Shown here piece after piece: positions 2,951-41,204 of a stretch of 64,000 nt of DNA. The translations under genes were made by a program, and so were the position numbers. The notes under the pieces are model-generated. The model worked only from the letters and a program-made list of their open reading frames with translations. It was not told the DNA's origin and ran no database searches. Origin of the DNA: Trypanosoma brucei (taxonomy: Eukaryota); the NCBI GenBank assembly GCA_000002445.1, contig CP000070.1, positions 1,216,001-1,280,000 on the forward strand, given 5' to 3'. Positions within the stretch are counted from its first letter, which is position 1; every line of letters starts with the position of its first letter.

Positions 2951-3175
2951 TCTATGACCCCTATGACGTACACAAGTATCAAGGTTGGAGTATATATATA
3001 TATATATTTACGGGAAGAAAGTAAATAAGAAGCCTCAGTAAATTCAACACGACAAAAAAGTGGGTACAAGGTCGATCAGATGGAAACAATACCGAGTACA
3101 AGCTGCGCAAGTAATTAAGCATATCGATATTGTGTGTTGTTAGCGCAAACGAATCCTGCTACGCGTGCTATAGGG

Positions 3176-4639: not shown

Positions 4640-5081
4640 CGTGCGCCGTTGGTTCACCTGCACATAACAAAGGGAGTATGAAACACACGACCGTAGTTGA
4701 AACATCCTAGTTTCAAAATGCCGCTCCCCTAACACAGTCCATGCACGCCCTATTCTATGATTGATGGGTTGAAAAGAAACGGCAGAATGAATTACAATAC
4801 ATACATCTGCGTGCATGAACCCAACGAGATTGAGCAACTGGAAAGAGGCAACATGGGAGAGCAACAAAACTGACACCACTTTACGGTATCGTGCAGACAC
4901 CTTCCTAACGCACTTGAAAGTCGTCGCGACCCACTAAGGGGAGGGTGCACGGTGGTTCGTATTCACTAGTCTTCCGTGCAGTTAACGCGGTAACAAAAGG
5001 TTAGATCACTTTAGCTAATACAAGTGTGTAAAACATTAATAAACAGTGTAAATATACAATGACATTTGGGGGAAGTGTCCG

Positions 5082-15909: not shown

Positions 15910-18900
15910 TTATATCCACCGCTCGCTCTTTACAGTATCAATATTGCGAATGATCTTTGTTACAGCAGGTTTTCCCCCCTCAAGGGTACACGTTTTTAAG
16001 GTCTCCCATAGATGACGCCTATCATCATCTTCTTCGCTGCTTGTGTAGTCAACCAAATCGTGCCCAGGAACCACCTGTGAGGTTTCCTCGTTTATGAGGC
16101 ACTTGAACAGTGCCCTTTTTCTTGCTTGGGCTTTTAAAACTGTGGCGTCTTCGAATCCCGATGCTAATTTATAGGCAATAACAGCCTTTGACTGATTTTG
16201 TCTGTAGCACCGCGCAATTGCCTGTGACTCAACCTGAGGATTCCACCACGTGTCCCACAGAATAACGTGATTCGCCGCAGTTAAATCAAGACCGTACGCG
16301 CCAATCTGAGTGGACACAACCAAGCAGAGTACGTTCTTATCATCCCTGAACATCTCAACAACCCTTCGTCGACGTTGCTGGCAATCTTTTCCACGAATTG
16401 TAACTACACTAATCTTATAAGCCGTCAAGGTTCTTGCAATGAAGTCTTGCGACCCAATGTATTGTGAAAATATCACAGCCTTTTCCATCTTCTCGAAAAT
16501 GCTGTGTAAAATCGAAATGAGGGCTGTTAGCTTACCACTGAGCGCAACAAAGTCGGCCAGTTTCCCGTTTTCAAGCAAACTTGAACAATCCTTCGCTAAA
16601 GCGTCATCATCACGGCTAAGCCTGTACGTTCCCAACTCTTCGAACTCCCCTGGTTCTTCTTCGATATCAACTTGACCTGTTCTCCATATACCGGTCAAAA
16701 AACCCAAGAAACACAGTGGATGTGTTGAAAGGTGGTATGGCCGATGTTCGGACGCCTTCAGACACAATAGGTTATCTGTTGCATCGACTTTAATGCGCTC
16801 CTCGAACATTTTCTGCTGCACAGCGGAAAAGTTGCATATAATAATGTAGTCGTGCAGCGGTGGAAGATCAACCTTCATAACGGTAAAGACATAGGGGCTC
16901 ATCCACTCGTGGATATATCGTTGTGCGAAGAGAGCATCACAAAAAGCACTATCATCACCGTTAACATAGCGGTTGATAGAGTTTGAAAACTCGTTAAAAT
17001 CGCGTTGCGGCAATGTGGAATGAACCTTGTCATCCACCCACCCAACAAGACGGTAGAGTTCCTCAGCGTTATTCTGCACCGGCGTCCCAGTGAGTACTAC
17101 CCTTGCCGAGCAATACAAACTATCCAGTACCTCCCTCAGTTTACTTTCCTTCGACGATATGCAATGGCCTTCATCAACGACTATGAGAGCGGGGCGGAAC
17201 CCCTTTACCCTCGAAAGAAATGATTTGATGTAGCCAGGATTGATGACAAAGACGTAACTCTTCTTAGGGTTAGTAGTTGTGCCTTGTTGTTCATAGTTAC
17301 TGAGATCATCCTCGAAGGAGCTGGAGTCCACGTTGTTTAGTACAATAAACCCCGGGAATACGAGACCATAGTCCTTCCACTTTTTCGCCTCCTGCATCCA
17401 GTGTTGAAGCAGTGTCTTCGGCGCAACGATCAGAATGTCACACGGCCCATTGTTGTAAATATAAGAATAGCAGATCGTCAGTGAAACCAGTGTCTTCCCA
17501 AGTCCCATTGTTAACGCCAGCACACAACCGTCTCCTTCCTTGATACGACGTGAAACAAATCTAAGGGCCGCATGCTGAGTTAAGCTCAGGGTCTTTGCTA
17601 TTTTGAAAGGAATACACAAAGGTGGAAGGTGGCCGGTGACTCCGTTCAAATTGACCACGCTGTCTGCGCTGTCAGCATGCAGACGATCGCTCATGATCTG
17701 GTTCCGGAGTCTCATGCTCCGCTCCGTTTCACATGTGTGGGACATCAACCCACACCGCAGATAGCATACAATGCTGATTCGTCTCCAACTTCCTTCACGA
17801 TTGTGTACTTCCGTGTTTCCGTGTTCCAGAGAACTGTCGAAAAATAAGACATCACCAACCTGAAGACAGAAGGCCTTGCGCGCACTTTTTAAGGCTAGGT
17901 AGCACCCCTCGTAATTACCGTCAAGTACGCAGAGTGCAGTAAGACCACCGCGAAAGTCACCTTTGTCTCGATGAACGGCGGTTCGAAAGTTCTTGTTCAC
18001 ACTTACAGTACTGAAAACGGTGTTGAATAGCATGTACTCAGGCGGTATGACCCTGCGCTGAAGTTCGTAATGGTCTGGGGCGTTTTCCTTGTATAGTTGA
18101 TCTAACAACTGCAGTAACTCACCACACGGTCCGATAATCTTACCCCAGTTCCTGCGTGTGAACTCAGTCATGCGGCACTTACGCTTCGTTGGATTGTTGA
18201 GATAGTCGTAATAGCCAAGGATACCCGTGTCCGGATTTCTCACACCACCATTTGTCAATCTCCGCATATTTTGTTTGGTAGCCACTCCCTCCACATCAGC
18301 TGCGGCACGTCGACAGATATCTTTATCAATGCCACCACGTATAAAGATGGCCTGCACACGCTTTCCGGTTGGGTCCAGCAAAACACTATCCTCGGTCACC
18401 AGCTCAAAATCCTTTTCAGAGAGGTACTCTGAAACCTTGCCTGTAGGGATGTCAACCACCTCGGTACCGGTAACGTCAAAGCCTTCATAAATATCATCCA
18501 CTGCATCCAGAGCAACAGGCGCAATGTTTACAGCTGCTTCAGCAGCATTGCGAGGGAATGGATCCATCGAACCGTCTAGATGGACCACAGTCCTCTTGAA
18601 TTGAACGTCCACGCGCTGTCCGAGAGGAAGCCTCTGTGTGAGAGCACCAGCTCGGAACTGACGGCGAAGTTCTTCACATACATTTTGCACAGGTCTGATG
18701 TGCAGAAGCGGAACAATATCGTACGCTTTTTGATATTCCTCATCAGAAGCGGTAACCAGTTCCGCACAGAGGTGGACAATTCGACATATGTAATCGCGAG
18801 GGTGGTAAAGAAGGCGGCACGGTAAGGATACACCTGGAGCCGTCGGGAATGTCTCCTCCAGGTTGCTGAACAGGGCCAAACGCTCTGCATCAGTCTTTAA

Positions 18901-19143
18901 CCCGTAGTAGTCTTTGCATAGCCTGGTAAGAGAAGATTCTGACATCGGTATTGGTGGTAGAATCGTGATGCCACCTTTCGGGATACTCACTAACTTCATT
19001 CCATGATTTTTAGCCTCGTCAACGATAACATCAAGTTCACCCAAGAAGGAACCGGGTATAACGATCGCTGGCTCACTCGTTACTAAGACAGTTTGTAGCA
19101 CCTGCTGCAGCACTTGAGACGCCCCATCCATAAACATAGGCAT
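15910..19143 (-). CDS. JBP2: J-binding protein 2 (JBP2): thymidine hydroxylase (Fe/2OG dioxygenase, TET/JBP family) with a C-terminal SWI2/SNF2 ATPase
   Basis: N-terminal HxD...H dioxygenase core (TAVHRDKGDF...LEHGNTEVHNREGSWRRISIVCY). SNF2 motifs LALTMGLGKTLVSL (motif I), VVDEGHCISSK (DEGH, motif II), LTGTPVQNNAEELY (III), and C-terminal helicase motifs (VIFSQY...LVVSTQIGAYGLDLTAANHVILWDTWWNP..QAIARCYRQNQ). The six-frame ORF starts at 19290 but a polypyrimidine tract plus AG lies at 19150-19215 and MPMFMDG begins at 19143. That gives 1077 aa, which matches my recollection of the T. brucei JBP2 length. Confidence 0.9.
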   Translation of the reverse strand: MPMFMDGASQVLQQVLQTVLVTSEPAIVIPGSFLGELDVIVDEAKNHGMKLVSIPKGGITILPPIPMSESSLTRLCKDYYGLKTDAERLALFSNLEETFPTAPGVSLPCRLLYHPRDYICRIVHLCAELVTASDEEYQKAYDIVPLLHIRPVQNVCEELRRQFRAGALTQRLPLGQRVDVQFKRTVVHLDGSMDPFPRNAAEAAVNIAPVALDAVDDIYEGFDVTGTEVVDIPTGKVSEYLSEKDFELVTEDSVLLDPTGKRVQAIFIRGGIDKDICRRAAADVEGVATKQNMRRLTNGGVRNPDTGILGYYDYLNNPTKRKCRMTEFTRRNWGKIIGPCGELLQLLDQLYKENAPDHYELQRRVIPPEYMLFNTVFSTVSVNKNFRTAVHRDKGDFRGGLTALCVLDGNYEGCYLALKSARKAFCLQVGDVLFFDSSLEHGNTEVHNREGSWRRISIVCYLRCGLMSHTCETERSMRLRNQIMSDRLHADSADSVVNLNGVTGHLPPLCIPFKIAKTLSLTQHAALRFVSRRIKEGDGCVLALTMGLGKTLVSLTICYSYIYNNGPCDILIVAPKTLLQHWMQEAKKWKDYGLVFPGFIVLNNVDSSSFEDDLSNYEQQGTTTNPKKSYVFVINPGYIKSFLSRVKGFRPALIVVDEGHCISSKESKLREVLDSLYCSARVVLTGTPVQNNAEELYRLVGWVDDKVHSTLPQRDFNEFSNSINRYVNGDDSAFCDALFAQRYIHEWMSPYVFTVMKVDLPPLHDYIIICNFSAVQQKMFEERIKVDATDNLLCLKASEHRPYHLSTHPLCFLGFLTGIWRTGQVDIEEEPGEFEELGTYRLSRDDDALAKDCSSLLENGKLADFVALSGKLTALISILHSIFEKMEKAVIFSQYIGSQDFIARTLTAYKISVVTIRGKDCQQRRRRVVEMFRDDKNVLCLVVSTQIGAYGLDLTAANHVILWDTWWNPQVESQAIARCYRQNQSKAVIAYKLASGFEDATVLKAQARKRALFKCLINEETSQVVPGHDLVDYTSSEEDDDRRHLWETLKTCTLEGGKPAVTKIIRNIDTVKSERWI

Positions 19144-20304
19144 TGCCGTAACTGGTAGCGTAAAGAGGGGGTAAATAATGTAGTGAACAAAGAGGAGGAA
19201 GGAAAGAGTGAACGTCAGTGGTCTCGAGAATGACCGCAGGAATCTGCGTACTGAAAAGGTGCGAAAATGGAGTAACCGGGTAGCAAACACAACCCAAATG
19301 CAACATTCACAACTGCATATGCAAAGTAAACTACCTCCTTCACTACCTTCCGCAACACTTGTTGTGGTATTCAGTAGCAGAAAATTTGTCCCAAAACAAC
19401 ACTCCTACAACCCAAAACATGGAGGTAACAAGCCAGTTTAAGTCTACGCTAGTTTGCGGAATTTATCAGCATTGAGCCCTACACACGTGGATGGAAGACG
19501 CTTTCCTCTGTATTGCTTCACATATTCTCATCTCTGTTCGACAAAGAGTGAGCGCCCTGTACTGGCTTCATGTAAATAAGGGAAACATCATTTGTCTTCA
19601 TTCGCGTAGGTATTTTATCCAACAAAATCGGTTTCGTGTGTGTCCTATGGAAAAGGGTATAACTTTTCGCACAGATATTTTGAAATTATGCTTACCAAGG
19701 ATTCTAATGTGTATCTACATGAAAACAAGGAAAGAAAATCAAGCAGAACCAGGGGTACTTATTGTCCCATGAGCAACGCGGCTGCGGCCCAGGCACATCA
19801 TAAGAAATACACGATATGGTACACTCCCTCGTTTCTTTTGGGTAAGGGGGAGGTTTAATTTTTCGACATGTACACTTGTTGTGCAAATTACGCCACCCTT
19901 TAGCCCGCAACACCTGACATTATTTCCCCTTTGTCATAGAAGGATCCTCGCCACCTCTTACTGCGTGTGCTCATGGCGGCGTAGTAGGTGAGCCACCTTT
20001 GTGCCGTGTACACTGATACCCATTTCAAAGTACCCGTACCTACTGCTCCGACACCTCCTGTGCTCATCAGCGGCGCCGTACCAACGCCAGAAAGTAACTG
20101 GGAAGAGAAACGCTTACGAACAGTGGAGATGAAACGGGACGTAACAAACTCTAGCTCGATATAATTAGTTAAATCTTTGTCGCCAACTCGTATATTCGCA
20201 CACGTTGCCTTGGAAAAATAAATTAAAAAGTATCAACCCCCAAAGTCCGAGGGCGTGGATACGTCACGAATGAAATCCATTCCAACACACCAAACAAGGA
20301 ATGT

Positions 20305-21467: not shown

Positions 21468-22373
21468 TCAATAAATTGTACGCTTACGGGTGTTTATAGT
21501 GTCCAGCACCGTGGTCGTTATCAAATTCTGATTTCCGGGATATAAAATTTCGAATGGGCCTAGAACAAAATCAATAGACGCCTTGACCGCTGCTTCGATA
21601 GACTTATCAAACACCGGGAAACGAGCATTCCCCATTACCCGGATGCAGTTTGCAACACGTGTAACAGCGCGCCTAATGTCTGCGTCAAACCTATCGTATG
21701 CAGATTTGGCCGACTCGGTAGCGGTAGTTGCTGTTGCTGGACTGACCCATATAGCACCATTTGTGCCAAGAACCAGATTTACGTGTATGAACTCCAAACA
21801 CATAAAGTGGTGCTTGACACGTTTAACAAGAGCTGGTGAAATTAGTACCAGTAAACCAAAGTCGGATAGCTTCCCATACTTCTCTCCTGATCGGGTGTGT
21901 AAGGATATCAGGCCATCTTGAGAAACGCGCTGCACCTCGGCAACGACCAACTCCCCTTCGTCAAATATGTTCCTCATAGTAAGTTCATCACTTCGGCCCC
22001 TCCTCCTCAGGATGCCACCGGGTTCAGTGACATTAGCCAAAGGCATCACTGCATCCTGAAAGGCCCCAACATCAACACGCCATCGGTTACCACATACTTC
22101 CTTAACGCGCCCGACCACAATATCACCAACCTCTGCGACGTACCGGGAAGACATACCTTTAACTGAGACAACTCTGTCTGTTACTTCAACCATCCCATTG
22201 ATTGAGGCAATAATTTCTCCACCACCCTCTTGTGCTGCAGCTGCACCGTTCGGGTTGTTGCCTTCGTAAGTGTTGTATCCTCGGAGGAAAACATGATCTT
22301 CAACGTAATCGAGTTTTGAGGGGCCCGCAGACCCACAAATGGTGTCACCTGTTATGCACGTCGGGACACTCAT
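21468..22373 (-). CDS. RRP4: Exosome complex component RRP4 (S1 + KH RNA-binding)
   Basis: RYVAEVGDIVVGRVKEVCGNRWRVD and EPGGILRRRGRSDELTMRNIFDEGELVVAEVQRVSQDGLISLHTRSGEKYGKL align closely with eukaryotic EXOSC2/Rrp4. The six-frame ORF runs to 22451 through a polypyrimidine tract. The likely start MSVPTCITGDT is at 22373, giving 302 aa. Confidence 0.85.
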   Translation of the reverse strand: MSVPTCITGDTICGSAGPSKLDYVEDHVFLRGYNTYEGNNPNGAAAAQEGGGEIIASINGMVEVTDRVVSVKGMSSRYVAEVGDIVVGRVKEVCGNRWRVDVGAFQDAVMPLANVTEPGGILRRRGRSDELTMRNIFDEGELVVAEVQRVSQDGLISLHTRSGEKYGKLSDFGLLVLISPALVKRVKHHFMCLEFIHVNLVLGTNGAIWVSPATATTATESAKSAYDRFDADIRRAVTRVANCIRVMGNARFPVFDKSIEAAVKASIDFVLGPFEILYPGNQNLITTTVLDTINTRKRTIY

Positions 22374-25300
22374 CACTACGAAGAGAGTAAACAAACAGTA
22401 GAGAAAACGATAGTAAAACAGAGGGGTTCGACAATGATGCATGATTTTCACAACAACGAATTAGCCGAACAACAGATTTGCGTGACAAAAAGGAAAAAAT
22501 ACGAACCACAGGCAAGTTAGAGGTCTAGGGGCTGTAAAGGGATGCAGGAAAATACAATTACGTGGCTGGATACGAAGCAGAGAGAAGAGTAGTGACCCAA
22601 AGTCGAAAGCAAAGTCAGAGAATACAGTATTTGCTAATGTTAATAACAAGGGAAAGAACGGCAGGAACGGACAAATTAAGTCGCGTTACTTCTTAAAGAA
22701 AAATGAGCTAAACCGACAACTTCAAGCATCTCCCCTGTGAACGCAACCCAGTTGCCGCAGTCAGACCCCAACCTCCAGTGGACAATGACAAGAAATACTT
22801 CTGCAAAAGAAGCTGTACAGACGGCAAAGGGGTACATTGGGGGTGTAGACGGAGAGAGAGACTTTTTACCCGCATGATCCTACTTGACAACGTGTCACAC
22901 CGTCAAGGGAACGCTTAAAAAATGCAGCGTATGCTATTTCAGTCGTGATTTACAATATCTATTTCCCCCTCCTTTCCAGCTCCTGCAGCAACGGACAATG
23001 AGTAAATATTACAAGGGCAGCCATCTTTGTCGAGATCGCACAGAACCCTTTAACGTCGGTGGTGCATAACACCCCACCCCTTCCTTCCCCACGAACTAGC
23101 GGATGCACACGTACCTCATTATACTGAACAGTTCAAGATCCACCACCTAAGAAGCGCTAAAACAAAAAGAAATGGGTGTGGGACCGCACCAATCGAAACG
23201 ATCTTTTCAAACTGAGAAAGGTGATTGAAAGGCCCCAATACATTACGAGTGCGGTTATCTGCACCAAGCTGCGTTGACGGGAACCGCTGGCGGCAAACGA
23301 CGAGGAAAGAAAGTGGCCAAAAGCACTAATGCATCGGGCATGAATAGGGAGGGGGTGATCCCACGAACCGATCACCAAAAAAGGGAACGACGTCACTTCG
23401 ACGTCGTTCTCTTTCGCCACACACGCCCACGCGCATCCCCGGATAAAAAATAAGATTGAACAAAAATGAAAGGGAAGGAGGGAAAAGGAGAAGGGCAACG
23501 ACGAGCCGCAGCGCATAGCAAAAGTGAGCCTCCATAAGACAGATGTGTGAAAAGGGGAGACCACCCAGTGGCCAATACTACCGTCCCCAAAACGAGGGCT
23601 GTACTGCCAGCACCACGCCACACTAGTGGGAGCTGACGGCACTCGGACACACCGCCATGCGCAGGTCCCGGGGCTAAGCCGGTTTTTAGGCCGCTTTCTG
23701 CAAAACCTGAACGAGTAGTGGGGGCTTAAGTCCACCCCTACCAGCAAAGGGCGGCGCTTTTGGTCACTTCGAGGCACCGGGAACCACCATTGGACATGTT
23801 ATTTCCGGCCCCCCGTCCATTAGCCTTCTGGGGCCTCAAAAATAGACAACAGCCGCCACCCCGGACGCGCGTTTTGGAATCTAAGCGCAAAGGGGCTGCC
23901 GCAGAAACCGGGTTGACATCGGTATTGGGGTCACAACGGTGGTTTAAAAGAGTGATCCCTCAGCGGGCCCTTGCCTAAATAAAAAGAAAACCGAATCGCG
24001 CCGGCGCTCGTCGAGCAAAGCTTCGCCTTTGCGGAGAGGCACCCGGCTGAACGAGTTGTTGTTGGGTTATATTCCGAGAATTTTGCAGGGGGTGGCTTCT
24101 TCGGGTCATAACATATGTACCCCACTTCCTCCTAGGATGGGTGTGTAATTTGACTGGAGAGTCGGGGAACATGAGCAGGGTGTTTTGTGTTCCACCGGTC
24201 AGGGGGCCGGGTTCTTTTTTTCATAAACGTCTATAGGTACGGGGTGTCTATTTTTGGGAGGAGTGCGTAGCCTGTTCCCTTATAGGCGTCCACGCAACTT
24301 CAGGCGAAAAATGCGGAAGAGAAAAAAAGAGGGTTGAACGACAGCGGCTTTTTACCTTTCGCTGAATATCGTTTCGTGAACTGTGTATAGTAGAGTTTCT
24401 GAATTTTTGGTCTCGCTACACTGTGTCATTTTAGCGAAATGAACTACGCAACGGTGTGGGCTTTGTTTTACATGCAGACGACAGCCGTGCCACCCGGCAT
24501 GTACCTGACGCACTTGACGGACCGCTGTCTCCTGGCCATTCCCTCATGTTACGGTGGCAACGTGTGGGGGAAAAGGTGGCGCTAGCCGTCGCGGCTCGCA
24601 CGGAGTTGAGATGTTGTGCAACTCGAAAACCAGCCACTTCCGTTTGTACAGCGTGGTTCTTGTAGGGGGACAAATGGTTGTTTATTTATACATTTAAGTG
24701 GCACATCAAAAGGATATGCGCGGCAGGGTTGTTCAGCCTCTTTGACAAGTACCCACAGCGGGAAACGCTTTTCGTTCCCCCTTTAAATGCGGTGCCTCCC
24801 AAAAACTGAGACGAAGGTCACTCGTGTGTGTGCATCCCTTCTCAATTTTCAAATGGTTAGCGGAAGTACGTCGCAGTCGAAAATGAGAACTGCTTCTGCC
24901 AACAAGAAACCCAACCGGGACACAAAATCGTACCACGAGTGAACGCTCAGTGGCCCGGGTAGTACTCAGCTTCTACCTTTTTATTTATGCGGGAAGGTTT
25001 AACGGCTGTGCTCCGTCTTTGCACCGCTGTTATTTCGTTGGGGGGAAAGTTTAAGGGGGGAAACTACAAAGTCTTTCAGAGAATAGGATGCTTTGGAACA
25101 CTTTCCTACCTTTGAACTATCTGTAATGGTAAGGATGTTGGGAAGAGGACTTGGGAGGGAATTTCGACCGTTTTGTTTGGAGAGCGCAGTGACGCTAAGA
25201 CAAAGGAGCCGTTGCAAAGGACGCGCCAAATAGCATTTAAATCCTGGGTGTAAAACGCGGGGTCATGTGCTTGCTCTGCTAAGTTTAATTTAATTTGTGC

Positions 25301-27974
25301 ACACACGCTCATGTGCATGACAATCCAATGGGTTTGAACCTTTCGGTTGATGTGAGAAGACAGAACAGAAAGTGCCGGGTGGAACCACCAATTTTTATAA
25401 CCAACGGCGCGCCACTGGGTCTACGGATGTGCCTGCAAGTTAGCAATCTGTAGAGTGTCCGTGGTGAAGTAGCAGCTGTCGTTTCAAAACTTTAAAATTC
25501 TCTGCTGAATATGTTGTACGATAGCGATGTGGAAACGTGTCATGTTATCTTGTGCCGTTTATCACACTGACAATGCAATAAGGTTCGCCAACAATTCACT
25601 GCGAAACTAAACTAGCACAACGTCATCAAAGGTGAAGCGCTAGGGGTACGTACGTGTTTTTCGTGGGAAACCATGTTTGCGTGAATTTCAGCAACACAAT
25701 TGGTGTGTTCGATGAAACAATTCCATTGAAGTTAGTAACTGTTGCCTCTTACAGATTTGTTGAGGGACACAAGACACGTCGTACCGTCCGAAATTACTAT
25801 GCCTTCAGCTGAGCTAAAGGGGACTTATGCGACGCTCCCTATATTATTGGTGATTTTTTCTTTAAAGTTTATGAAAGGTAAAATCTGTTACCTTTTGTTA
25901 ATTGGGGAGCTGGGGACAGAAATTTTGTGTGGGTTATACAAGTCGTTTTGACGGAGATGTTAAGCATTACTACAGCTTTGATATACGCACACTGCTGTTT
26001 TCGATTGACGTGTGAAAACAGAGTGGCATGGCGTTGGGCAGTATAGCAAGCAGTAACACATCAGTTCTCGTCGTGAAGCGGTTACTCGTCGCCGTTACTT
26101 GACATCCACCCACTGTATACACAACAGTCTACCCGTTATCCTTACAAGAGCAGTTGTTCTGACCTTATCATGTGACTGTGATAGGGGCATTCTGTTATTC
26201 ATCTTGCAAAATTTTCGGACCGCCGCCAAGTGACTTCTCCAAGAAATAATTGGAACACACCTCCACAGAAGTTGATGATCATTTATTTATTTATTTAAAA
26301 TCACGTCACAATCAGAGGAGATGTGCAGATGCGGCAGTAGGGTAGTTGAGTTTTATTTCATGTTGACACCGAGGCACTTCAACTGCGCGAGAAGAAAATA
26401 CTTAAGATGTAGTCTCGTGCTCCAAACTAGTTTGCATAATCAGTGAGAAGTATTGTGCAGATTGTGGTAGCGTTTTTTTTCTAATAAAAAAACCGCTGGG
26501 GTGCCCACTACTTGTGTGTACTTGATTTGATTTGGCAACTGCCAACACTGTTTGTGAAGATGGTGGCAGTTAGGAGTTGTTCGTGTACGATCAGCTCACT
26601 GAATTTTTAACGCGATACCCGTTGTGCACACCGATTCAAGTAGAAAATGGGTGACGGCAACACCAACACGTTGCGGAACCGACGTTTGTCGGTGATGGAC
26701 GATGGTTTTGCGATTCCACATGCCGTTAAACGTTACTACTCAATGCTTTGATAACAGAGGCATTGTCTTTGCTTGAAAGGTACCGCTACTGTTCTTAACC
26801 TTACATAACTAATTATCGGCCGTCTGTTTGTATTTGTTTTCAGCTTGTCCAAATCGGTTTTTGTGAGGGTGTCGTGCGATGTTGCACTCTAACACACTTG
26901 ATCTAACAACGGCTGCTGTTGTCGTTTCCGTTTTGGTGCCGATCCTGCACCTCTTCGAAAAATATGTTGAGGGGCAGACAACAGCGTAGACAAAGGCGTG
27001 GTTATGCCTGATATGTGCTTATATTTTAAAAAATGCCAGCAACTGTCGTCACCCCTTTAACTTGGTGGGCCGCCGGCGCCAAGTGGTTTAATACTCGTCT
27101 TGGCGTAGGTAATGCATATTGGTATTTGCTGCTCAATGTAAACGAGCACGTTGCTGTAAGCCGTTGTTACGACCAGCATCAGGGCATGACGACTAAATTC
27201 TGAATCCCCTCTCGCTGTGTAATTGATTTCCGTGCATTTGAGAGCCGGCGCAGCTTACCGTTAACAAACGTTCACATACTCAGCCTTCTTACAGCTGTAG
27301 AATAAGTCTAGTAACGAACACTAAAGTAACACGAAAGCACAAAAAAATGCTGGTGATATCTTTTCTTTTCGGTGCCGCGAGCAACTGACCTTAAGCCGCC
27401 AGTCGAGCTTTGAGTAAAGAAGGGCAGTCGCATGAACATTACAATTTGTCCGAATTTGTTTCCTTTGTTACCACAAGTTATTTGTTGCAGTGGTCACTTG
27501 GTGAGCGGTATTCGTTTTATGATGAATGCTGTTGTTGTTTTTTTTTTGTTACTTCTCTCGAAGCCTTTGCTCACGAAGAAAATACCCAAGCTTACTCGAA
27601 TTTTGTTTTGCCATTGGCGGTTACCGGGGCCACAAAGCTCGAAAGGCACAACGTGAAGGATATAGGGGGGGGGGCATATTTATGTCCGTGATGGAGTCCA
27701 TCAACGAACCAAGACCCGTTTGCATCCCTATTTTACTCAGCCTTCGGATTTGTTCGAGGTGCAGACTCAATGCGCCAGTTTATTTATTTATGCTTATTTA
27801 CTAGATTTCTTCTAAGACGTTGGGAGGGTGCCACTCCCGGAATGATACCTTTCAATATCTCCTGGCAATGGCATTGCATACAAGAACGAAGCTAACGCTA
27901 CTCTATACCCCACTTCTCTCTCATCAACTTTATTGTGTTCCACGTCTTGCGCAATTGCTGTTTGTAGGTGCAAG

Positions 27975-28241
27975 ATGGGAAAGCAAAAGAAGCGGCTTCC
28001 AAAGCAAAAGCGGAAAGTCCCTATGGCAGAGCGCTCCCGTAAGCTAACAAAAAAGGGAAAACTTAAACGCCGACGCGGTGACCTGAAAATGGTCCACAAT
28101 CTCGATGTCAGTTTCCCCGTGAAGCAAAAGAAAGGTGGAAAGTGGGTGAGAACGGGTGAGCGCCGCTGCAACGTACACACGGTTTGCAATTGTGTTAACC
28201 GCACGGATCCCACCAAAATGGCACGAGTGACGAATCGTTGA
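27975..28241 (+). CDS. Candidate small basic protein (88 aa) with a K/R-rich N-terminus and a C-terminal Cys/His cluster (C-x4-H-x3-C-x-C). It is the only plus-strand candidate gene in the window
   Basis: ORF 27933-28241 with internal start MGKQKKRLPKQKRKV at 27975. Immediately upstream lies a polypyrimidine tract (ccccacttctctctcatcaactttattgtgttccacgtcttgcg) followed by AG dinucleotides (gtAGgtgcaAGatg), the classic kinetoplastid trans-splice acceptor configuration. Codon composition is plausible but the region is purine-rich. Confidence 0.3.
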   Translation: MGKQKKRLPKQKRKVPMAERSRKLTKKGKLKRRRGDLKMVHNLDVSFPVKQKKGGKWVRTGERRCNVHTVCNCVNRTDPTKMARVTNR

Positions 28242-29992
28242 GGACCCACCCAACACACCTGGAGATAGCAGTAAAGTGTGTTTTCCCTGCAGTGTCAGAC
28301 GTGCGCCTTCCACCGCTCACGGAAAGCGTTATGTTCCCCACGTAAGGGAAGAGGCCGCGTACGCGTACGTGGCTCAGGTGCCGTCACCTCGTCGGCCATA
28401 CGCACAAAGCACCCGCAGTCACAACTCTGCGGTCAACCGTGCACCCCCGTACTAACCCATTGGCCAACCATCTCACCGCGTACCTTTTTACTTATTCAGT
28501 CCTTTTTTTTTTCTTGGTTTTAGAGTTCACTATGTAAAGGCGGTGCGCAAGCCAGTGTAGTATTCGGCGGGGATTCGAATGCGGGGAGGCTCCAAGACAG
28601 CAACCCAGCAGCAGCGGCTCGGCTGGAGGAGAACTGGAGAGGGGAAGGGAAGGGGGCGGCGCGGAAGCATCGCGGCAGCGTGGGTCTCCAAGGCTGACGT
28701 TTAGGAGGTCCGCCACGAACCCGGCACCTGTTCCCGACACACACGCGGGATTTAGAGGCAACACCCCCGCCCCGTGGATTTAGGAAGTATTGGGGAATAT
28801 GCTCTAACTGGTAAAATAAAAGGGGAGCAAGGAGGTAACCTCTGGAAAGGCGATGGAAACTGTTTTCCGGGTGGCATAACCGACGTTTGGACAGAAGGGG
28901 CGCCCAAAGAGGAAGGCGATACGGGACGAAGGAACGAAGAGATAAACCGCCCACGCGGCCACCCAGGGGAAAGGGAAACCTAACTCACTGAAAATTTATT
29001 TCAAGAAGCCAGCAGCCACGCGAGCACGGGCCCTCTGGACACATAAGTTTCTCGCTTTTAGAAACTGGCAACTGAGAAAACATTTCAACTCGCATGGAGA
29101 GTTTGTCTTTCCAAAGAGGCGCGAAATTTGGGGACTGTATATGGGGGAGGAGGGCTTGGGCGCAAGGCACCGGTGTAATAGAAGGTAGGAAAGCACAACC
29201 CGGACCGTGAGCAAGATTCGCCAAGCGCGGTTCAACTCCTCCGTTGTTTCCGCACTGAAAGCGGTCGGTCACAAGCTCTCGCCCCGGCGCGCGCCGGTGG
29301 CGGTTTGTGGCTGCTCTTGTGATCCGTCGGTGGTTTAGGTGATGCGTTTTACTTCTCAAACGCGCCGTCGCCCACATTTGAATCTACCTGCCTAAACAAT
29401 TGAAAGAACAGAAGGAAACGCGCAGATGGCAGCGAAGAGACCACCGGCTTAGCGCCTCGCAGTCCGCGCATCACCCCACTTCCGACCGCATTCAAAGTGG
29501 AATTTAGCAATTCTTCTTTCACACCCCTGCCGACACACAAAAAGAAAATAATAGTAATATTGACAATAATGATAATGATGAACAACCCGGGAATATAGTC
29601 AACGTGTGGCTAAAAAATAAATAAATAAAAGGGACCCTCGCACGAACACACAAGACAGCGCGTCCGAAGATTTTCGGCGACGGTTTGTGCGTCTGCGACC
29701 GAATATTCAATCCACTGTTAATCATCCTCCACACCCTCCTACTTTAACCACATCGTTTCTGTTTCAAAAGTCAACCCCTTTTTCGTTTCACATTTTTATC
29801 CATTACATGTTTCCCCCTTAATGCGCGGACCCTCACCTCGTAGCTCGGTTTACTTTAATTCATTTTACCCCCACGCACCTATTTTCCCCAGACGATCCCG
29901 TTTTCTTTCCTTCTTTTTATCCCCCCTCTTCCCGTTCCCCGCTCGCTCGTTAACGCTCGCTCCGTCGATAACATTAATTTTTCGCACGAGAC

Positions 29993-30244
29993 TCACTTTG
30001 TCGCTTCGTTTCGGACTTCCTTGACGGCCTTAAGGACGTTCTTCGGTAGTTTGGCGGTGGCAAATATGAGGTTGGTGCGGCGGTCCAACTCCGACTTCAA
30101 CTCATCCACCCTCCCCGATTCCTCCTTCTCGTCCCGCCTTCCACCGGCGCCTCCCGCTTGCGGTTTCGGAGCGCGACCCGCGTCCTGCGCATCTCCCCTG
30201 CTGCCGCCGGCTTGGGGCTTTGCTGCTCCGCCTCGTCCCTTCAT
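29993..30244 (-). CDS. Candidate small Gly/Ala/Lys-rich protein (83 aa) with an amphipathic C-terminal helix
   Basis: MKGRGGAAKPQAGG...VDELKSELDRRTNLIFATAKLPKNVLKAVKEVRNEATK. High GC3 and a coding-like composition. A strong polypyrimidine tract lies on the minus strand at ~30555-30590, upstream. Confidence 0.25.
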   Translation of the reverse strand: MKGRGGAAKPQAGGSRGDAQDAGRAPKPQAGGAGGRRDEKEESGRVDELKSELDRRTNLIFATAKLPKNVLKAVKEVRNEATK

Positions 30245-31230
30245 TTCTCCTTTGAATTGTAAATGGCACGCGGTTATTCAATTGATGTGTTTGGATAATG
30301 TGTCCGATACGCCCAATTAATTAATATTATAAGCTAGACGGTGTGAATTGCCGCGTATAACCAACTGGGCAGATGAAACTGCGCGCTTGCTTCCTTTTTC
30401 GGATGCGTGTATGTCTTAACTGACGCTTTTGCCTTCTCGATATAAAGATGATGGGCTCATGGTACAGCGCACGGGCGACAGGGAGGCCATGACAGTGTGA
30501 ACGGCCATGGATGGGTGTCAGCGGCGACACAAAAACAAAACAACAACAAGTGATTGGCAAAGAGGAAGGGGAGGGGACGGAAAGAAATACGGAATAAATT
30601 GTGAAAATCGTGAAGGCCCGCCGCTTTCACATCCATAATCCCAACGCATTTCCACAAAAAAGACCACAGTACTCGGTAACGCAGGGAACGTTCAGGCTTC
30701 AGCCGATGCAAGCAATACGAATTTAAAAACACAGAGAACCTCTTTCAGCAAGGTGAAAACGCGACGAGTCCACGTGAAGACAAAAAAAAGGGCAATAAAC
30801 CACACAACAAAGTGCAAGGGATGGTTTCGCACACGGTGAATCACCTTATCATTCGACTAGGGCGCAAAAATTAACAACAATACCAACTTTCCCCCCTTTA
30901 AAGAATGAGGGGGAAAAAAAAAGAAACACCCCTCCTCCCTCTTTTCCGCGCCTCTTTATTATGGGGCCAAAAAACACATATACCTCACCTCCGGTGTTGG
31001 TCAAAGCTTTTAAGACCCCCTGACGGGAGCAACAACGACTGCAAAGAGACGGTAAACACACAAGAAGAGTGAAGAAGAAATGACAAAAGGGGAAAGGGAG
31101 GAACAAAACGCACTAAACATGGGCATGTATGCCCCAAAATCTCCTCCCGCCCAGCCACCCGGAAAAGCACAGAAACTCGGGTGACGGCATGCACGTCGCG
31201 CGGAAGAAGAGGGAAGAAAAAGAGTCCTGT

Positions 31231-32223
31231 TCAAGAGTCCGCGAAAGCTTGAAGCTCCCGCTCACTGAAACCCGATGCAATACGTTTGTGGTAGCATATT
31301 GTCCTACAAAACTGCCTCAACGCCATTGACCCCAGAACAAACAACACAATGACCATCAACACTATGGAACTTAAGAGAATAATGTAGAAGGGTTTCTCAT
31401 TCCTTTCCGGTGGGACCGGGGGCGGTGGTGGCGTAGGGCCGGGTTCTGGTCCTGGTTTTGGCCCAGGTGGAGGTTGTAACCCCGAAATGGCAACCTTAGC
31501 CGCTTCATTTCCCGCCGCCACTGCCATCGGTACCTGCTGCGCTGCTCCCTGGCGGGCCTCACTCGCGGCGCCGACAATACCCTCCAACTCCCGTAATAAT
31601 TTCTCAGTCTCGGTGAGGTTCGCCCGTATGGTCGGGTCTTTCACAAACGGTAGCGCCCGTTGCATGGCGTCATTCAGCGAGTCTGCTGTGACGTTCTTTC
31701 TCTCCCTCTTGTTACATTTGTCAGTGACGTGCTGCCTAAACGAAACCTCCGCATCATCCACTAAGTGCTTGAGATACCCGTTCGCCACCTCAGCGCACTG
31801 CACAACACGCACTGCGGCATCCTTGAACTGCGACCACAGTCCTCGGACCCTTTGGATTTCTTCGTTACACAGAACGATTGCAGTTCTTACTTTGTTAAAC
31901 GCGGCCAAAACAACTTCAATAGCTTCAGCTGACTGTGAGGAAGCCGCCCGCAGCACGGCGGCGTAGGCCTTTCGTACTTCCATCTCCGCTATTGCCCCGC
32001 TTTGTGACGCCACAGTGGCGTTTCGGCGCACATGCACCTTCATAGAATCAACAGCATCCCACGGCACTCCATTCAATTGTTTGATTAATTCACACACGGC
32101 CTCGTCACCGTCATTCTCGGTGAGTGCCGTCCTCCCAAGCACACTCCCAAACAAGAGGAAGCTAAGATATACGTAATAAATCAAGATCATTACCTCGTTG
32201 GTCACACGATGCGCAATTAACAC
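31231..32223 (-). CDS. Predicted type I membrane protein: signal peptide, helical ectodomain with N-glycosylation sites, Pro-rich stalk, single TM, short cytoplasmic tail
   Basis: N-terminal MILIYYVYLSFLLFGSVLG. NATV/NVTA/NLTE sequons. Stalk QPPPGPKPGPEPGPTPPPPPVPP. TM FYIILLSSIVLMVIVLFVLGSMAL. Tail RQFCRTICYHKRIASGFSERELQAFADS. Confidence 0.55.
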   Translation of the reverse strand: MLIAHRVTNEVMILIYYVYLSFLLFGSVLGRTALTENDGDEAVCELIKQLNGVPWDAVDSMKVHVRRNATVASQSGAIAEMEVRKAYAAVLRAASSQSAEAIEVVLAAFNKVRTAIVLCNEEIQRVRGLWSQFKDAAVRVVQCAEVANGYLKHLVDDAEVSFRQHVTDKCNKRERKNVTADSLNDAMQRALPFVKDPTIRANLTETEKLLRELEGIVGAASEARQGAAQQVPMAVAAGNEAAKVAISGLQPPPGPKPGPEPGPTPPPPPVPPERNEKPFYIILLSSIVLMVIVLFVLGSMALRQFCRTICYHKRIASGFSERELQAFADS

Positions 32224-32894
32224 CGTCGCAGCGGAGACTTCCTTTCCAAATTAGCAAGCCATTCGCCACGGGAACGCACGGGTGGTACGACGAAAAGGGA
32301 GAGAAGAGGAAAGAACAAGAGGAGGGAACAAAAGTGAACCTCATGGGGCGTGTGTGTGTGTGAGGAGGTTTCTAGTGGCCACGAGCAACATGCCACACAT
32401 TTAAATATTTCGCGCGCATCTGCGGCTGGTGGTCGGGAAAATTGGGGAAGAAAAAAAGAAAGGAAAAGAGCCGCCGCATCTGTATCACCTCTTGGGCTCT
32501 TTTTTTTCCCCCTCCCTCCTCGGTGCGTGACATTGTTCTGCAGCCAACCAAATCCCGTTAACACAACTTGCGCTGCTACCACCAGATGTGCCCGATAATT
32601 ACTTGTGCTGACATCTAGAAAACAATAAGAAAGAGCAGGATGAAAGGGGAAGTGTTCATACGCATCGTTGAATACAATGCCACGCATATGCAAGCAAGCA
32701 TACCCCATCGTAAGTGGACAGAAACTTGTGTACGGTTAAGCAAATGCGACAAAGCAAAAAAAAAAAAAGACAAGAGAAACCTAGCGGTACGGAGAAGGGG
32801 GCACACACATACACACCCCGGCAATAAATAACATTGTGTGACATAATTTCTTCACTTTCCCCTCTTCCATCCCTCCCTCCCTCTCCCTCCCAAA

Positions 32895-38635: not shown

Positions 38636-38699
38636 ACACGCCGCTGCAGAACAGCAATAATAATGCAGGAGAGAAGAGGAATTAAAGAGAGAAGACTGT

Positions 38700-39514
38700 G
38701 CACATAAGAAAATCGAGAGACATCAAGGAAGAAAATAAGCAGTGAAACAACGGAAGAACACCCTCCACAAGTTAAAGCACAAATGATGATTTGATTAAAT
38801 TGTCACATGCGAAGTTCCGGTCCGCTAGTCTTGTGTGACGCCCCTCTGCGGCCAACGATAAAAGTAATGACAGTAGCATTAACAGTGGGAATGGAAACCA
38901 AAAAAAAAAAGCAAGAACAAAAACAACAACAACATTTGAACTAAACAAATAAAGCAACTGACCGAAGCGCGGGGCAGTTGGGTAAGGAAAAAAGTAAAAA
39001 GAAAAGAAAGGGAAAAGCATTGGAAAAGAAGTAAACGGGGAAAAGTATGAAACCCACACTTACACACACATATGTATATATTTCCGCATATAAATCCCCC
39101 CTTTCCCCCTTTTCAGGTATTTTATATGTTCACGTATAAAACATGAACACCCACGAGGAACCCCATGCAAACACATGTGCGTTGTATATATATATATATA
39201 TATGCATATATAGATAGAAACATACACACACATAAATAATATATATAACATGGTGTAGCATATATAATGTATCTAATGCAAGTACACATCATATAAATTA
39301 ATATAAATAAATAAATAAATAAATATATATATATATATATATATATAAATATATATATGAGCGTCCGTACTCACTTTACAAAAAAGACAAAGGAACGAGA
39401 ATGAACACAAACCTCACGTGAATCTTGGCGAACATATACATCTTCTAGTTGTGTGTACAGGTGCTCGCCTAGCGCATAGGAATGAAACCAAACTGCTCGC
39501 AGAAGTAAATTAAA

Positions 39515-39558
<44 letters not shown>

Positions 39559-41200
39559 TTATTTATTTATTTATTTATATTTAAAGTAATGCCAACGTGA
39601 TTACACAGACATACGCGCACACATGAAACCTCCCATCTCTTCTTTTTCTCAACTTCACTTCACTTCATTTCATATTTCCTTTTTCATTTCACCGCATCGC
39701 AACCACTTCCCTTTTCATGCTTTTAATTATCTATTCATTTATTTTATTTCAACACCAACAGCAACAAGAGTGGCAATTGTGACAATAACGGACGTTATAA
39801 TTTATCAACATTATTTACAGTTCCCTTCGCCGATGCAATCTTTCATCGGCTTCAAAGCCCGTCATTTTTTAGTGCTTCCCTCCATGGCGACATTTTCCCC
39901 GTTTCCCTTTCCCTTTCTCTCTTCTTGTTCTTCTTCCTCTTTGTCACTTGGTTTTACTTCTCTATTTTTTATTTTTAAACATTTAATATGTCATTCGGAC
40001 TCTTCAACCCTTTTCTCGACACTTCTTCCTTATATGTTGAATGATGACATGAGTTCTTTCCAAAACAAAACAAAACAAATAAGTAAATAAACAAATAAAA
40101 CAAACATAGGCAGGTTGTAACAAGTAATAAATAAATAAATATAAAAATAAAAAGCAAACGCAATTGTGTACGTATAAAATAAAACAAAAGGAAAACAAAC
40201 ACACGCACGTGGAGACAAAAAGGAGAAATAAACTGAGGCATGCCGAAAAATAAAATAATTGTGGGCGACAGTTCTAACGTTCTAATACTGCAGGCACCAC
40301 GGAATCGGAAACGGTGAGAACAAAAATAAAATAAAAAAAAAAGGAAACATCACCCAAACATTTTGTTTCATGTCGTCCGTTTTTCATAATATTTTTATTT
40401 TCTCTACTCTTCGCACTTCATCCGATTTGTATATATATTTCTAACAAACGGTAAAATAAAAATAAAAATAAAAATAAATAAATTAAAGCAAAACAAAACA
40501 AAACAAGCGGATAATTTTAATAACAAAAACAACAACAACTTCTTCCCTTAAGGGAAAACGAAATAAAAAAGAAATAGAATACGCCGGAGTGAATAAATAC
40601 TCTATATAGTTATGTGACTTTAAATTTTTTTTCTCGTATATATTTTTTCCTCGTTTAATATATTTATTTGGATATTTCTTTTTTTTTCATTTATATCATT
40701 TTATTCCCCTTCGCTTGTTCCCTTCCCTTTTCCCCTCCATCCCGCACATGCCACAATCACCATTGTGTTCTTCACGCTTTTACATTTCTCCCATTTTCGC
40801 TCAGTGGAGGCACCGCGGGGGATATGAAATGCCAGGGAGTTATGCAATAGAGGAAATGTGGCGTCTTATCGCTTGCCTTCGTTTTCCTTCTGCTATCGGT
40901 ATTGCTTTTGTTGTTATTCTTGTAGTGCTTCCAATCGCTATTGTTGAGAAAGTATAAAACAATTACGGCTTCCCCTAACACGCATTCACACGAAAAGAGG
41001 GGCACATGTCCCGTCGCTCCTTTCATGATCAACCGTTAATTGTCTCAACTTCTCGTACTTTTCACTGCTTCGTTTTTTTTTCTTCACTCTTTCATTCGCG
41101 ATCGCTTCCTCAACCTCACACATTCATCACCGTCATCGCAATGATCCCCTCGCACGTACGCACACACACACAAAAAAAAAAAGAAAAAAATATGCAAATG
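38700..41200. repeat. AT-rich low-complexity intergenic block with (TA)n, (ATAAATAA)n, (ATTT)n, (AAAATA)n microsatellites and poly-purine/poly-pyrimidine runs
   Basis: Direct reading, e.g. 39181-39200 (ta)n, 39291-39360 (ataa)n(ta)n, 39520-39575 (ta)n(attt)n, 40440-40480 (aaaata)n. No coherent ORF. Confidence 0.9.
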
Positions 41201-41204
41201 TGCC

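What the first reader, a model, noticed from the sequence alone, without database searches (positions are those of the whole stretch)
22452..31230. An 8.8 kb ORF-free interval splits an otherwise uniform minus-strand gene array, a candidate Pol II unit boundary or strand-switch region
Every confident gene from 1.2 to 22.4 kb and from 31.2 to 64 kb is on the minus strand with 0.3-1.8 kb spacing. Between them lie 8.8 kb with no credible long ORF and a different composition: GC-rich islands at 23.15-24.7 and 28.25-29.5 kb, and GT-rich plus-strand tracts at 25.4-27.9 kb. In trypanosomatids such gaps between same-strand arrays are where Pol II terminates one polycistronic unit and starts the next. 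They are typically marked by base J and histone variants and sometimes house small-RNA genes. GT-rich elements have been reported to drive directional initiation in T. brucei. The plus-strand GT-rich tract sits just upstream of the only plus-strand candidate gene. That suggests a short divergent-start region (about 25-27.9 kb) followed by a convergent termination zone (28.2-30 kb).
Basis: partly seen in the sequence, partly recalled or inferred. Interest (0 to 1): 0.6.

Follow-up and report, generated by a model that had tools for sequence, protein, structure and literature searches.

The report
Known strand-switch region with lone gene
The 8.8 kb "empty" stretch is an already catalogued boundary on Trypanosoma brucei chromosome 7, where transcription starts in both directions, runs through one small conserved gene on the opposite strand, and then meets the incoming gene array head-on; it is an ordinary feature of this genome.

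Summary
The window is T. brucei TREU927 chromosome 7, 1,216,001-1,280,000. Eight of eight published splice-acceptor coordinates fall directly after an AG at that offset.

The gap is real. It measures 8,857 bp, against a median of 547 bp and a maximum of 2,569 bp for the other 24 gene spacers. It is not gene-free:
- 27975-28241 (+) is Tb927.7.4680, "phosphoprotein LEPP12". It is 88 aa, 75% identical in T. cruzi, with homologues in euglenids and a probable diplonemid.
- 29993-30244 (-) is an 83-aa ORF with gene-like codon usage. It lies inside the abundant mRNA Tb7.NT.52.

Kolev et al. 2010 (Table S14) list three Pol II units here: 4670→4250 (-), 4680 alone (+) and 4960→4690 (-). Reynolds et al. 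2016 list a convergent region at about the same chromosome 7 coordinates.

The sequence agrees. GT/AC strand bias flips at 24,019 and again near 28,000. I found no tRNA, Rfam family, repeat or Pfam remnant.

One modest addition concerns position. RRP4 sits at or near the head of its unit in every species examined. LEPP12 lies inside a long same-strand unit in T. cruzi and two other trypanosomatids, so its isolated position in T. brucei looks derived.

The parts
21468..22373 (-). RRP4 (Tb927.7.4670) coding sequence, first annotated gene of the minus-strand unit 4670->4250. The true start is the ATG at 22373 (301 aa).
   Evidence: Pfam RRP4_S1 and KH_6. 100% identical to TREU927 RRP4. The published splice acceptor at window 22375 lies inside the annotated ORF. 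Orthologues are 301-302 aa.
22519..23156 (-). Tb7.NT.50, a low-abundance spliced and polyadenylated transcript. It is the first processed RNA of the minus-strand unit.
   Evidence: Kolev 2010 Table S7, 1239156->1238519. An AG lies directly upstream of 23156.
22374..24019 (-). Minus-strand arm of the divergent start region. It is GT-rich on the minus strand (plus-strand GT fraction 0.429) and includes a GC-rich island.
   Evidence: Runs of C/A (4 or more) outnumber runs of G/T 35:17 on the plus strand. Cumulative GT-AC falls to its minimum at 24,019.
24020..27974 (+). Plus-strand arm of the divergent start region. It is GT-rich on the plus strand (0.542), strongest at 24.0-24.5 kb (0.58).
   Evidence: G/T runs outnumber C/A runs 53:27. 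All 15 500-nt windows in 23.9-28.0 kb have GT >= 0.516, against 0.473+-0.045 outside. No Pfam remnant in any of six frames.
27284..27856 (+). Tb7.NT.51, a low-abundance processed transcript upstream of LEPP12. It is the first processed RNA of the plus-strand unit.
   Evidence: Kolev 2010 Table S7, 1243284->1243856. An AG lies directly upstream of 27284. Its ORFs have non-coding codon usage.
27975..28416 (+). LEPP12 (Tb927.7.4680): coding sequence 27975-28241 (88 aa) plus a 175-nt 3'UTR to the mapped poly(A) site at 28416. It is the only gene of the plus-strand unit.
   Evidence: Annotated as phosphoprotein lepp12, Q57X84/XP_846091.1. 75% identical in T. cruzi, with 61-69% homologues in other, unnamed contigs. 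Homologues in Euglena and Rhabdomonas. Poly(A) site from Kolev Table S13. Codon LLR 0.128.
28417..29487 (.). Core of the convergent region, between the two facing poly(A) sites. It is GC-rich (0.555) with no strand bias (GT 0.489).
   Evidence: A cSSR is listed at chr7 1,242,271-1,248,969 with only 3.3 RPM of small RNA. No Pfam or Rfam match.
29488..30455 (-). Tb7.NT.52, an abundant 967-nt mRNA (29.45 in Kolev's abundance table). It carries an 83-aa ORF at 29993-30244 and is the last processed mRNA of the incoming minus-strand unit.
   Evidence: Kolev Tables S6, S7 and S13. AG and polypyrimidine tract upstream of 30455. ORF codon LLR 0.249. One synonymous change among T. brucei subspecies. Annotated only in T. 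equiperdum.
31231..32190 (-). Tb927.7.4690, a 319-aa membrane protein distantly related to GARP. It is the last annotated gene of the unit 4960->4690.
   Evidence: Pfam GARP at 33.9 bits. Called as 319 aa in T. b. gambiense and T. equiperdum. Table S14.

Best explanation
The interval is a compound boundary between RNA polymerase II polycistronic units on T. brucei chromosome 7.

A broad, promoter-motif-poor bidirectional start region lies between RRP4 and LEPP12, with its divergence point near 24.0 kb.
- Leftwards (minus strand) it fires into the long unit Tb927.7.4670->4250.
- Rightwards (plus strand) it fires into a roughly 4.4 kb unit whose only protein-coding gene is LEPP12 (Tb927.7.4680).

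That short unit ends about 1 kb before the end of the incoming minus-strand unit Tb927.7.4960->4690. The last mRNA of the incoming unit is Tb7.NT.52. The stretch 28,417-29,487 is therefore a convergent termination zone.

Shown here:
- gene content and orientation;
- the mapped RNA ends;
- the strand-composition switch;
- the published classification of the units.

Inferred from general knowledge of T. brucei, not seen for this locus:
- H2A.Z/H2B.V, acetylated histones and the SPARC complex over the start region;
- H3.V, H4.V and base J over the termination zone.
For: Locus identity:
- RRP4 is 100% identical to TREU927.
- Eight of eight published splice-acceptor coordinates land right after an AG at offset 1,216,000.

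The plus-strand gene is real:
- It is annotated as LEPP12.
- T. cruzi has a 75% identical 88-aa orthologue.
- Homologues occur in Euglena and Rhabdomonas, with invariant C65/H68/C71/C73.
- Its codon usage is gene-like and its poly(A) site is mapped.

Published classification:
- Kolev 2010 Table S14 lists the three units, with 4680 as a single-gene '+ Divergent' unit.
- The text states that 5'-triphosphate reads were enriched at every divergent unit.
- Reynolds 2016 S2 Table lists the cSSR.

Sequence features:
- The cumulative GT-AC minimum is at 24,019 and the maximum near 28,000.
- G/T-run asymmetry is mirror-image on the two arms, 53:27 against 17:35.
- This matches the coding-strand GT-rich elements of Wedel 2017.

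Synteny:
- RRP4 sits at or near the head of its unit in T. cruzi, T. vivax and T. melophagium, and is about 11.6 kb from a chromosome end in L. braziliensis.

Nothing else explains the gap:
- No tRNA, Rfam, repeat or Pfam signal.
Against: - No chromatin or nascent-RNA track was examined for this locus.
- Table S14 is headed 'putative' and comes from procyclic forms only.
- Initiation sites are not known to the nucleotide, and the 24.0 kb divergence point is inferred from composition.
- The cSSR coordinates of Reynolds 2016 are in the Lister 427 assembly and were matched only by their similar numbering.
- Read-through from the incoming minus-strand unit into the RRP4 unit is not excluded by anything seen here.
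Confidence: 0.93

Rival explanations
1. A head-to-tail ('internal') boundary. The incoming minus-strand unit terminates and a new minus-strand unit starts, with no functional plus-strand transcription in between.
For: The flanking arrays are on the same strand. T. brucei has many such internal starts (Table S14).
Against: A conserved plus-strand gene with a mapped poly(A) site, and a mapped plus-strand transcript (Tb7.NT.51), lie in between. Table S14 calls all three units 'Divergent', not 'Internal'. The composition flips to plus-strand GT-rich for 4 kb.
Confidence: 0.03
2. No boundary at all. The interval is one continuous minus-strand unit in which the 8.8 kb is long untranslated or intergenic sequence.
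For: T. brucei has multi-kilobase UTRs. Noncoding divergence in the gap (1.1-1.9% against T. b. gambiense) is the same as in other spacers.
Against: The evidence against the first rival applies here too. In addition, RRP4 is at or near the head of its unit in every other species examined. The gap is 3.4 times the next largest spacer.
Confidence: 0.02
3. The gap is a graveyard of a mobile element (ingi/RIME/DIRE) or a decayed gene, or it holds a small-RNA gene cluster. On this view the composition shifts are relics rather than transcription signals.
For: Synteny breaks in trypanosomatids often carry retroelements or RNA genes (general knowledge). This locus is a synteny break.
Against: No Pfam domain at E<=0.1 in six-frame translations of 22520-27974 and 28242-29992. 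No tRNA. No Rfam match at E<=1. No repeats shared with the rest of the window and no tandem arrays.
Confidence: 0.02

Closest known systems
Divergent strand-switch regions (bidirectional Pol II transcription start regions) of T. brucei (Siegel 2009; Kolev 2010; Wedel 2017; Staneva 2022)
   Same: Genes point away from each other. The region is broad (about 5.5 kb), with no focused promoter motif. GT/G-run enrichment sits on each coding strand and is strongest near the divergence point. Low-abundance first transcripts lie next to it. It is listed as 'Divergent' in Table S14.
   Different: Nothing material. One arm drives only a single small gene.
Single-gene Pol II units in T. brucei (e.g. Tb927.1.2040, Tb927.4.3750, Tb927.5.340, Tb927.8.1380; at least 16 in the part of Kolev Table S14 that was read)
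   Same: One annotated gene sits between a divergent and a convergent switch, on the strand opposite to both neighbours.
   Different: Here the lone gene is an ancient, conserved Euglenozoan gene. In T. cruzi and two other trypanosomatids it lies inside a long unit. I did not check whether the other single-gene units share that history.
Convergent strand-switch regions / termination regions marked by H3.V, H4.V and base J (Siegel 2009; Reynolds 2016)
   Same: Two facing poly(A) sites lie 1.07 kb apart. The region is catalogued as a cSSR on chromosome 7.
   Different: Small RNA is very low (3.3 RPM), so this is not one of the siRNA-producing convergent loci. The J and H3.V status of this particular site was not seen.

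Membership tests
Divergent strand-switch region / bidirectional Pol II start region (T. brucei) | Real genes on opposite strands pointing away from each other | tested here: met
   RRP4 (-) and LEPP12 (+) are both conserved coding genes.
Divergent strand-switch region / bidirectional Pol II start region (T. brucei) | Catalogued as the start of Pol II units from primary-transcript (5'-triphosphate) data | tested here: met
   Kolev 2010 Table S14 lists 4670->4250 (-) and 4680 (+) as 'Divergent'. The text says enrichment was seen at every divergent unit. This is a literature look-up; I did not see the raw tracks.
Divergent strand-switch region / bidirectional Pol II start region (T. brucei) | GT-rich / G- and T-run bias on the coding strand of each arm | tested here: met
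   The bias switches at 24,019. Run ratios are 53:27 (plus arm) and 17:35 (minus arm). The criterion comes from Wedel 2017.
Divergent strand-switch region / bidirectional Pol II start region (T. brucei) | H2A.Z/H2B.V, H4K10ac, H3K4me3 and SPARC/RPB1 enrichment | not testable with these tools
   No ChIP tracks are available. Siegel 2009 is not held.
Convergent strand-switch region / termination region | Transcripts on opposite strands ending face to face | tested here: met
   The LEPP12 poly(A) site is at 28416 (+) and the Tb7.NT.52 poly(A) site is at 29488 (-).
Convergent strand-switch region / termination region | Listed in a published cSSR catalogue | tested here: met
   Reynolds 2016 S2 Table lists chr7 1,242,271-1,248,969. 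The coordinates are from the Lister 427 assembly and were matched by position only.
Convergent strand-switch region / termination region | H3.V, H4.V and base J enrichment | not testable with these tools
   No tracks are available for this locus.
Head-to-tail internal start site | Same-strand units abut with no opposite-strand unit between them | tested here: not met
   The plus-strand LEPP12 unit lies between them.
PTU boundary associated with tRNA, snRNA or rRNA genes | A Pol III or Pol I gene at the boundary | tested here: not met
   ARAGORN found 0 genes. Rfam found 0 at gathering threshold and 0 at E<=1.
siRNA-producing convergent transcription unit | Abundant 21-27 nt small RNA from the overlap | tested here: not met
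   3.3 RPM in wild type, against hundreds to thousands at siRNA loci in the same table.

The most novel reading that the evidence does not exclude
The one-gene plus-strand unit is a T. brucei-lineage innovation. LEPP12 left its ancestral place inside a long unit, between a gene of about 600 aa and a DCN1-like gene. That arrangement is kept in T. cruzi and two other trypanosomatids. LEPP12 then landed at an ancient unit boundary just upstream of RRP4. RRP4 sits at or near the head of its unit in every species examined and lies next to a chromosome end in Leishmania. On this reading, the otherwise unproductive antisense arm of a bidirectional promoter was co-opted to express a single conserved gene at a former chromosome-end fusion point.
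Probability: 0.35. Interest if true: 0.35.

Novelty: already known. Interest (0 to 1): 0.15.

Why it matters
It mostly serves as a positive control. From raw sequence alone, a reader can correctly spot a trypanosome transcription-unit boundary using gene-strand layout, gap size and GT skew.

The locus itself has been catalogued since 2010.

The small extra value is evolutionary. The boundary upstream of RRP4 looks ancient, while what sits on its other side differs by lineage: LEPP12 in T. brucei, a trans-sialidase gene in T. cruzi, a duplicated 203-aa gene in T. vivax, and a chromosome end in Leishmania. This makes it a tidy case for asking how single-gene units arise.

The abundant Tb7.NT.52 mRNA, with its gene-like 83-aa ORF, may deserve annotation if the reference still lacks it.

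Tried and rejected
- Bacterial-type promoter/terminator scan: counts were at shuffle level, and the scan is irrelevant for a trypanosome.
- Spliced-leader remnant, as a sign that LEPP12 is a retrocopy: no match within 3 mismatches. There is no A-run after its poly(A) site. Homology to T. cruzi stops exactly at the coding sequence. Retroposition therefore has no support.
I repeated it with stops masked as X and found nothing.
- The gap and its ORFs against the RRP4 loci of T. vivax, T. cruzi, L. braziliensis and T. melophagium: blastn and tblastx gave no hits, and tblastn gave only chance-level hits.
- The 83-aa ORF: no homologue outside the T. brucei group, no Pfam match and no PDB match. AlphaFold gives a disordered N-terminus plus a helical hairpin, too generic to search.
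- LEPP12: no Pfam match and no PDB match even with a profile. The AlphaFold model is poor, at pLDDT 59.6, so I ran no fold search.
- Literature: Siegel 2009 and Cordon-Obras 2022 are not held. The Wedel 2017 supplements have no entry for this locus, and no supplementary files are held for the MCM-BP paper. Searches for the gene and transcript identifiers in main texts found nothing about the boundary itself.
- The TREU927 RRP4 protein is not on record in the contig index, so I used the T. b. gambiense and T. equiperdum loci instead.
Full report
**Where the window comes from.** The flanking ORFs are trypanosome genes. They include JBP2 (15910-19290, Tet_JBP plus SNF2), RRP4 (21468-22451), a GARP-like protein (31231-32223) and a WD40 protein. 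RRP4 is 100% identical to T. brucei brucei TREU927 RRP4. Kolev et al. 2010 (PMC2936537) give RRP4 (Tb927.7.4670) at Tb927_07_v4 1237468-1238442, so window coordinate = chromosome coordinate minus 1,216,000. I tested that offset against eight published splice-acceptor positions: Tb7.NT.50, 51, 52 and 53, RRP4, JBP2, Tb927.7.4660 and Tb927.7.4700. All eight fall directly after an AG, most of them after a polypyrimidine tract.

**The observation.**
- No ORF of 150 aa or more lies in 22452-31230 except a 206-aa one at 23157-23777. Its codon usage is non-coding, at -0.098 LLR per codon against 0.159+-0.036 for 27 real genes of the window.
- The mapped RRP4 splice site (22375) lies inside the annotated ORF. 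The real start is therefore the ATG at 22373, which gives 301 aa, as in the orthologues.
- The gap is then 8,857 bp. The other 24 spacers have median 547, mean 774+-604 and maximum 2,569 bp.
- GC is raised at 23.0-24.75 kb and 28.0-29.5 kb.
- The plus strand is GT-rich from 24,019 to about 28,000. The cumulative GT-AC curve has its minimum at 24,019 and its maximum at 27,830-28,000. The mean GT fraction is 0.539, against 0.473+-0.045 elsewhere.

**The interval is not empty.**

*LEPP12.* The plus-strand ORF 27975-28241 (88 aa) is the annotated gene 'phosphoprotein lepp12' (Q57X84, XP_846091.1), identified as Tb927.7.4680 by its position and poly(A) site.
- An exhaustive HMMER search found homologues about 40-54% identical. 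Those with a source name come from Euglena mutabilis, Rhabdomonas costata and a transcriptome labelled 'Hpha', which I take to be the diplonemid Hemistasia.
- The word-indexed search found an 88-aa T. cruzi orthologue at 75% identity and several others at 61-69%.
- Cys65, His68, Cys71 and Cys73 are invariant.
- Its poly(A) site is mapped at window 28416, giving a 175-nt 3'UTR.

*The 83-aa ORF.* The minus-strand ORF 29993-30244 (83 aa) lies inside Tb7.NT.52. This is a 967-nt spliced and polyadenylated mRNA (30455->29488) with abundance 29.45 in Kolev's tables, near mRNAs such as DHH1 and TCTP in the abundance list.
- Its codon usage is gene-like, at 0.249.
- It differs from T. b. gambiense and T. 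equiperdum by one synonymous change, while the flanking UTRs differ by 1.4-1.9%.
- It is annotated only in T. equiperdum and has no detectable homologue elsewhere.

*Two further transcripts.* Tb7.NT.50 (23156->22519, minus) and Tb7.NT.51 (27284->27856, plus) are low-abundance processed RNAs that flank the central 4.1 kb.

[quoted passage not shown] All three are typed 'Divergent'. The text says that 5'-triphosphate reads were enriched at every divergent unit, on both strands. Reynolds et al. 2016 (PMC4721609) list a convergent strand-switch region at chr7 1,242,271-1,248,969. It has only 3.3 RPM of small RNA, so it is not an siRNA locus.

The layout in window coordinates is:
- a divergent start region between RRP4 and LEPP12, with core 23,157-27,283 between the first processed RNAs;
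- a single-gene plus-strand unit;
- a convergent termination core at 28,417-29,487 between the two facing poly(A) sites.

**Sequence support for this mechanism.** Wedel et al. [quoted passage not shown] The enrichment is strongest at the 5' end, and such elements can drive directional initiation and H2A.Z deposition. Here the plus arm (24,020-27,974) has 53 G/T runs of 4 or more against 27 C/A runs. The minus arm (22,374-24,019) has the mirror image, 17 against 35. The GT fraction peaks at 0.58 right after the switch. The convergent core is GC-rich (0.555) without strand bias.

**Alternatives excluded.**
- No tRNA.
- No Rfam family at gathering threshold, or at E<=1 on the interval.
- No tandem or dispersed repeats involving the gap.
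- No Pfam domain in any frame of 22520-27974 or 28242-29992 with stops masked.
- No retroelement or decayed gene is therefore detectable.
- The gap is collinear, and 98.4-99.8% identical, in T. b. gambiense and two T. equiperdum-type assemblies. Its divergence is ordinary for noncoding sequence.

**Comparative context (the only part that goes beyond the literature I read).**
- In T. cruzi the next gene upstream of RRP4 is a trans-sialidase on the opposite strand, and the GT-AC switch lies about 370 bp before RRP4.
- In T. melophagium RRP4 is 1.3 kb from a contig end, with an opposite-strand fragment beyond it.
- In T. vivax an inverted pair of 203-aa ORFs with a switch between them lies upstream, so RRP4 is the second gene of its unit.
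- In L. braziliensis RRP4 is the first called gene, about 11.6 kb from the chromosome end.
- LEPP12 is not near RRP4 in any of these species.
- In T. cruzi, and in two other trypanosomatid assemblies (one with 55% GC and only 26-44% protein identity to T. cruzi), LEPP12 sits inside a long same-strand unit. There it lies between a gene of about 600 aa and a Cullin_binding (DCN1-like) gene.
- None of those neighbours is in the 64 kb window. Homology between T. brucei and T. cruzi stops at the coding sequence.
- The start upstream of RRP4 thus looks ancient, while the isolated, inverted position of LEPP12 looks derived in the T. brucei lineage.
- I found no spliced-leader remnant and no poly(A) relic, so nothing points to retroposition.

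**Limits.**
- I saw no histone-variant, base J or nascent-RNA track for this locus. Siegel 2009 is not held.
- The unit table is labelled 'putative' and derives from procyclic forms.
- The cSSR list uses Lister 427 coordinates.
- The exact initiation sites are unknown.

**Verdict.** The gap is real and far outside the spacer distribution, but it is not ORF-free. The feature is a textbook T. brucei strand-switch pair with a single-gene unit, and it has been in the literature since 2010. Interest is low.

Noticed in passing
window 29488-30455 (-), ORF 29993-30244: Tb7.NT.52 is an abundant mRNA (29.45 in Kolev's abundance table). It carries an 83-aa ORF with gene-like codon usage and is predicted as a disordered RGG-rich N-terminus plus a helical hairpin. 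The ORF is annotated only in T. equiperdum and has no homologue outside the T. brucei group. It may be an unannotated lineage-specific small protein.
   Followed up: partly
window 27975-28241 (+); loci L013-L019: LEPP12 is conserved in kinetoplastids and euglenids, with an invariant CX2HX2CXC motif and no Pfam or PDB match. In T. cruzi and two other trypanosomatids it lies between a gene of about 600 aa and a DCN1-like gene in a long unit. In T. brucei it stands alone on the opposite strand.
   Followed up: partly
window 22374-22451: The annotated RRP4 start (324 aa) lies upstream of the mapped splice acceptor at 22375. The ATG at 22373 gives 301 aa, matching the orthologues. Kolev 2010 Table S1 already lists this misannotation.
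   Followed up: yes
window 38636-41204: This is the second largest spacer (2.6 kb). It is very AT-rich (GC 0.32) and has (TA)n and (TAAA)n tracts. It also carries 65-nt inverted repeats at 39294-39358 and 39519-39583. It is probably a long UTR, but I did not examine it.
   Followed up: no
window 1896-2900 within ORF 1202-2950 (-): About 36-40 tandem copies of a 24-nt unit (an 8-residue repeat) at 92-96% identity lie inside a 582-aa ORF. They produce a strong local GT/GC-skew anomaly.
   Followed up: no
window 32217-32708 (-): This 163-aa ORF has non-coding codon usage (-0.011). It overlaps Tb7.NT.53 (32614->32407), which Kolev 2010 lists as a putative non-coding transcript. T. b. gambiense annotates a 125-aa gene here, which is probably spurious.
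   Followed up: partly
L008 (T. vivax) 2754-3365 (-) and 6139-6750 (+): An inverted pair of 203-aa ORFs flanks a GT-AC switch at 4287, upstream of T. vivax RRP4. Only one of the two was called as a gene in the assembly.
   Followed up: partly
L011 (L. braziliensis) 4300-7700: Weak protein hits recur at a spacing of about 1.5 kb in the 10 kb between RRP4 and the chromosome end. No genes are called there, which suggests subtelomeric tandem repeats.
   Followed up: no
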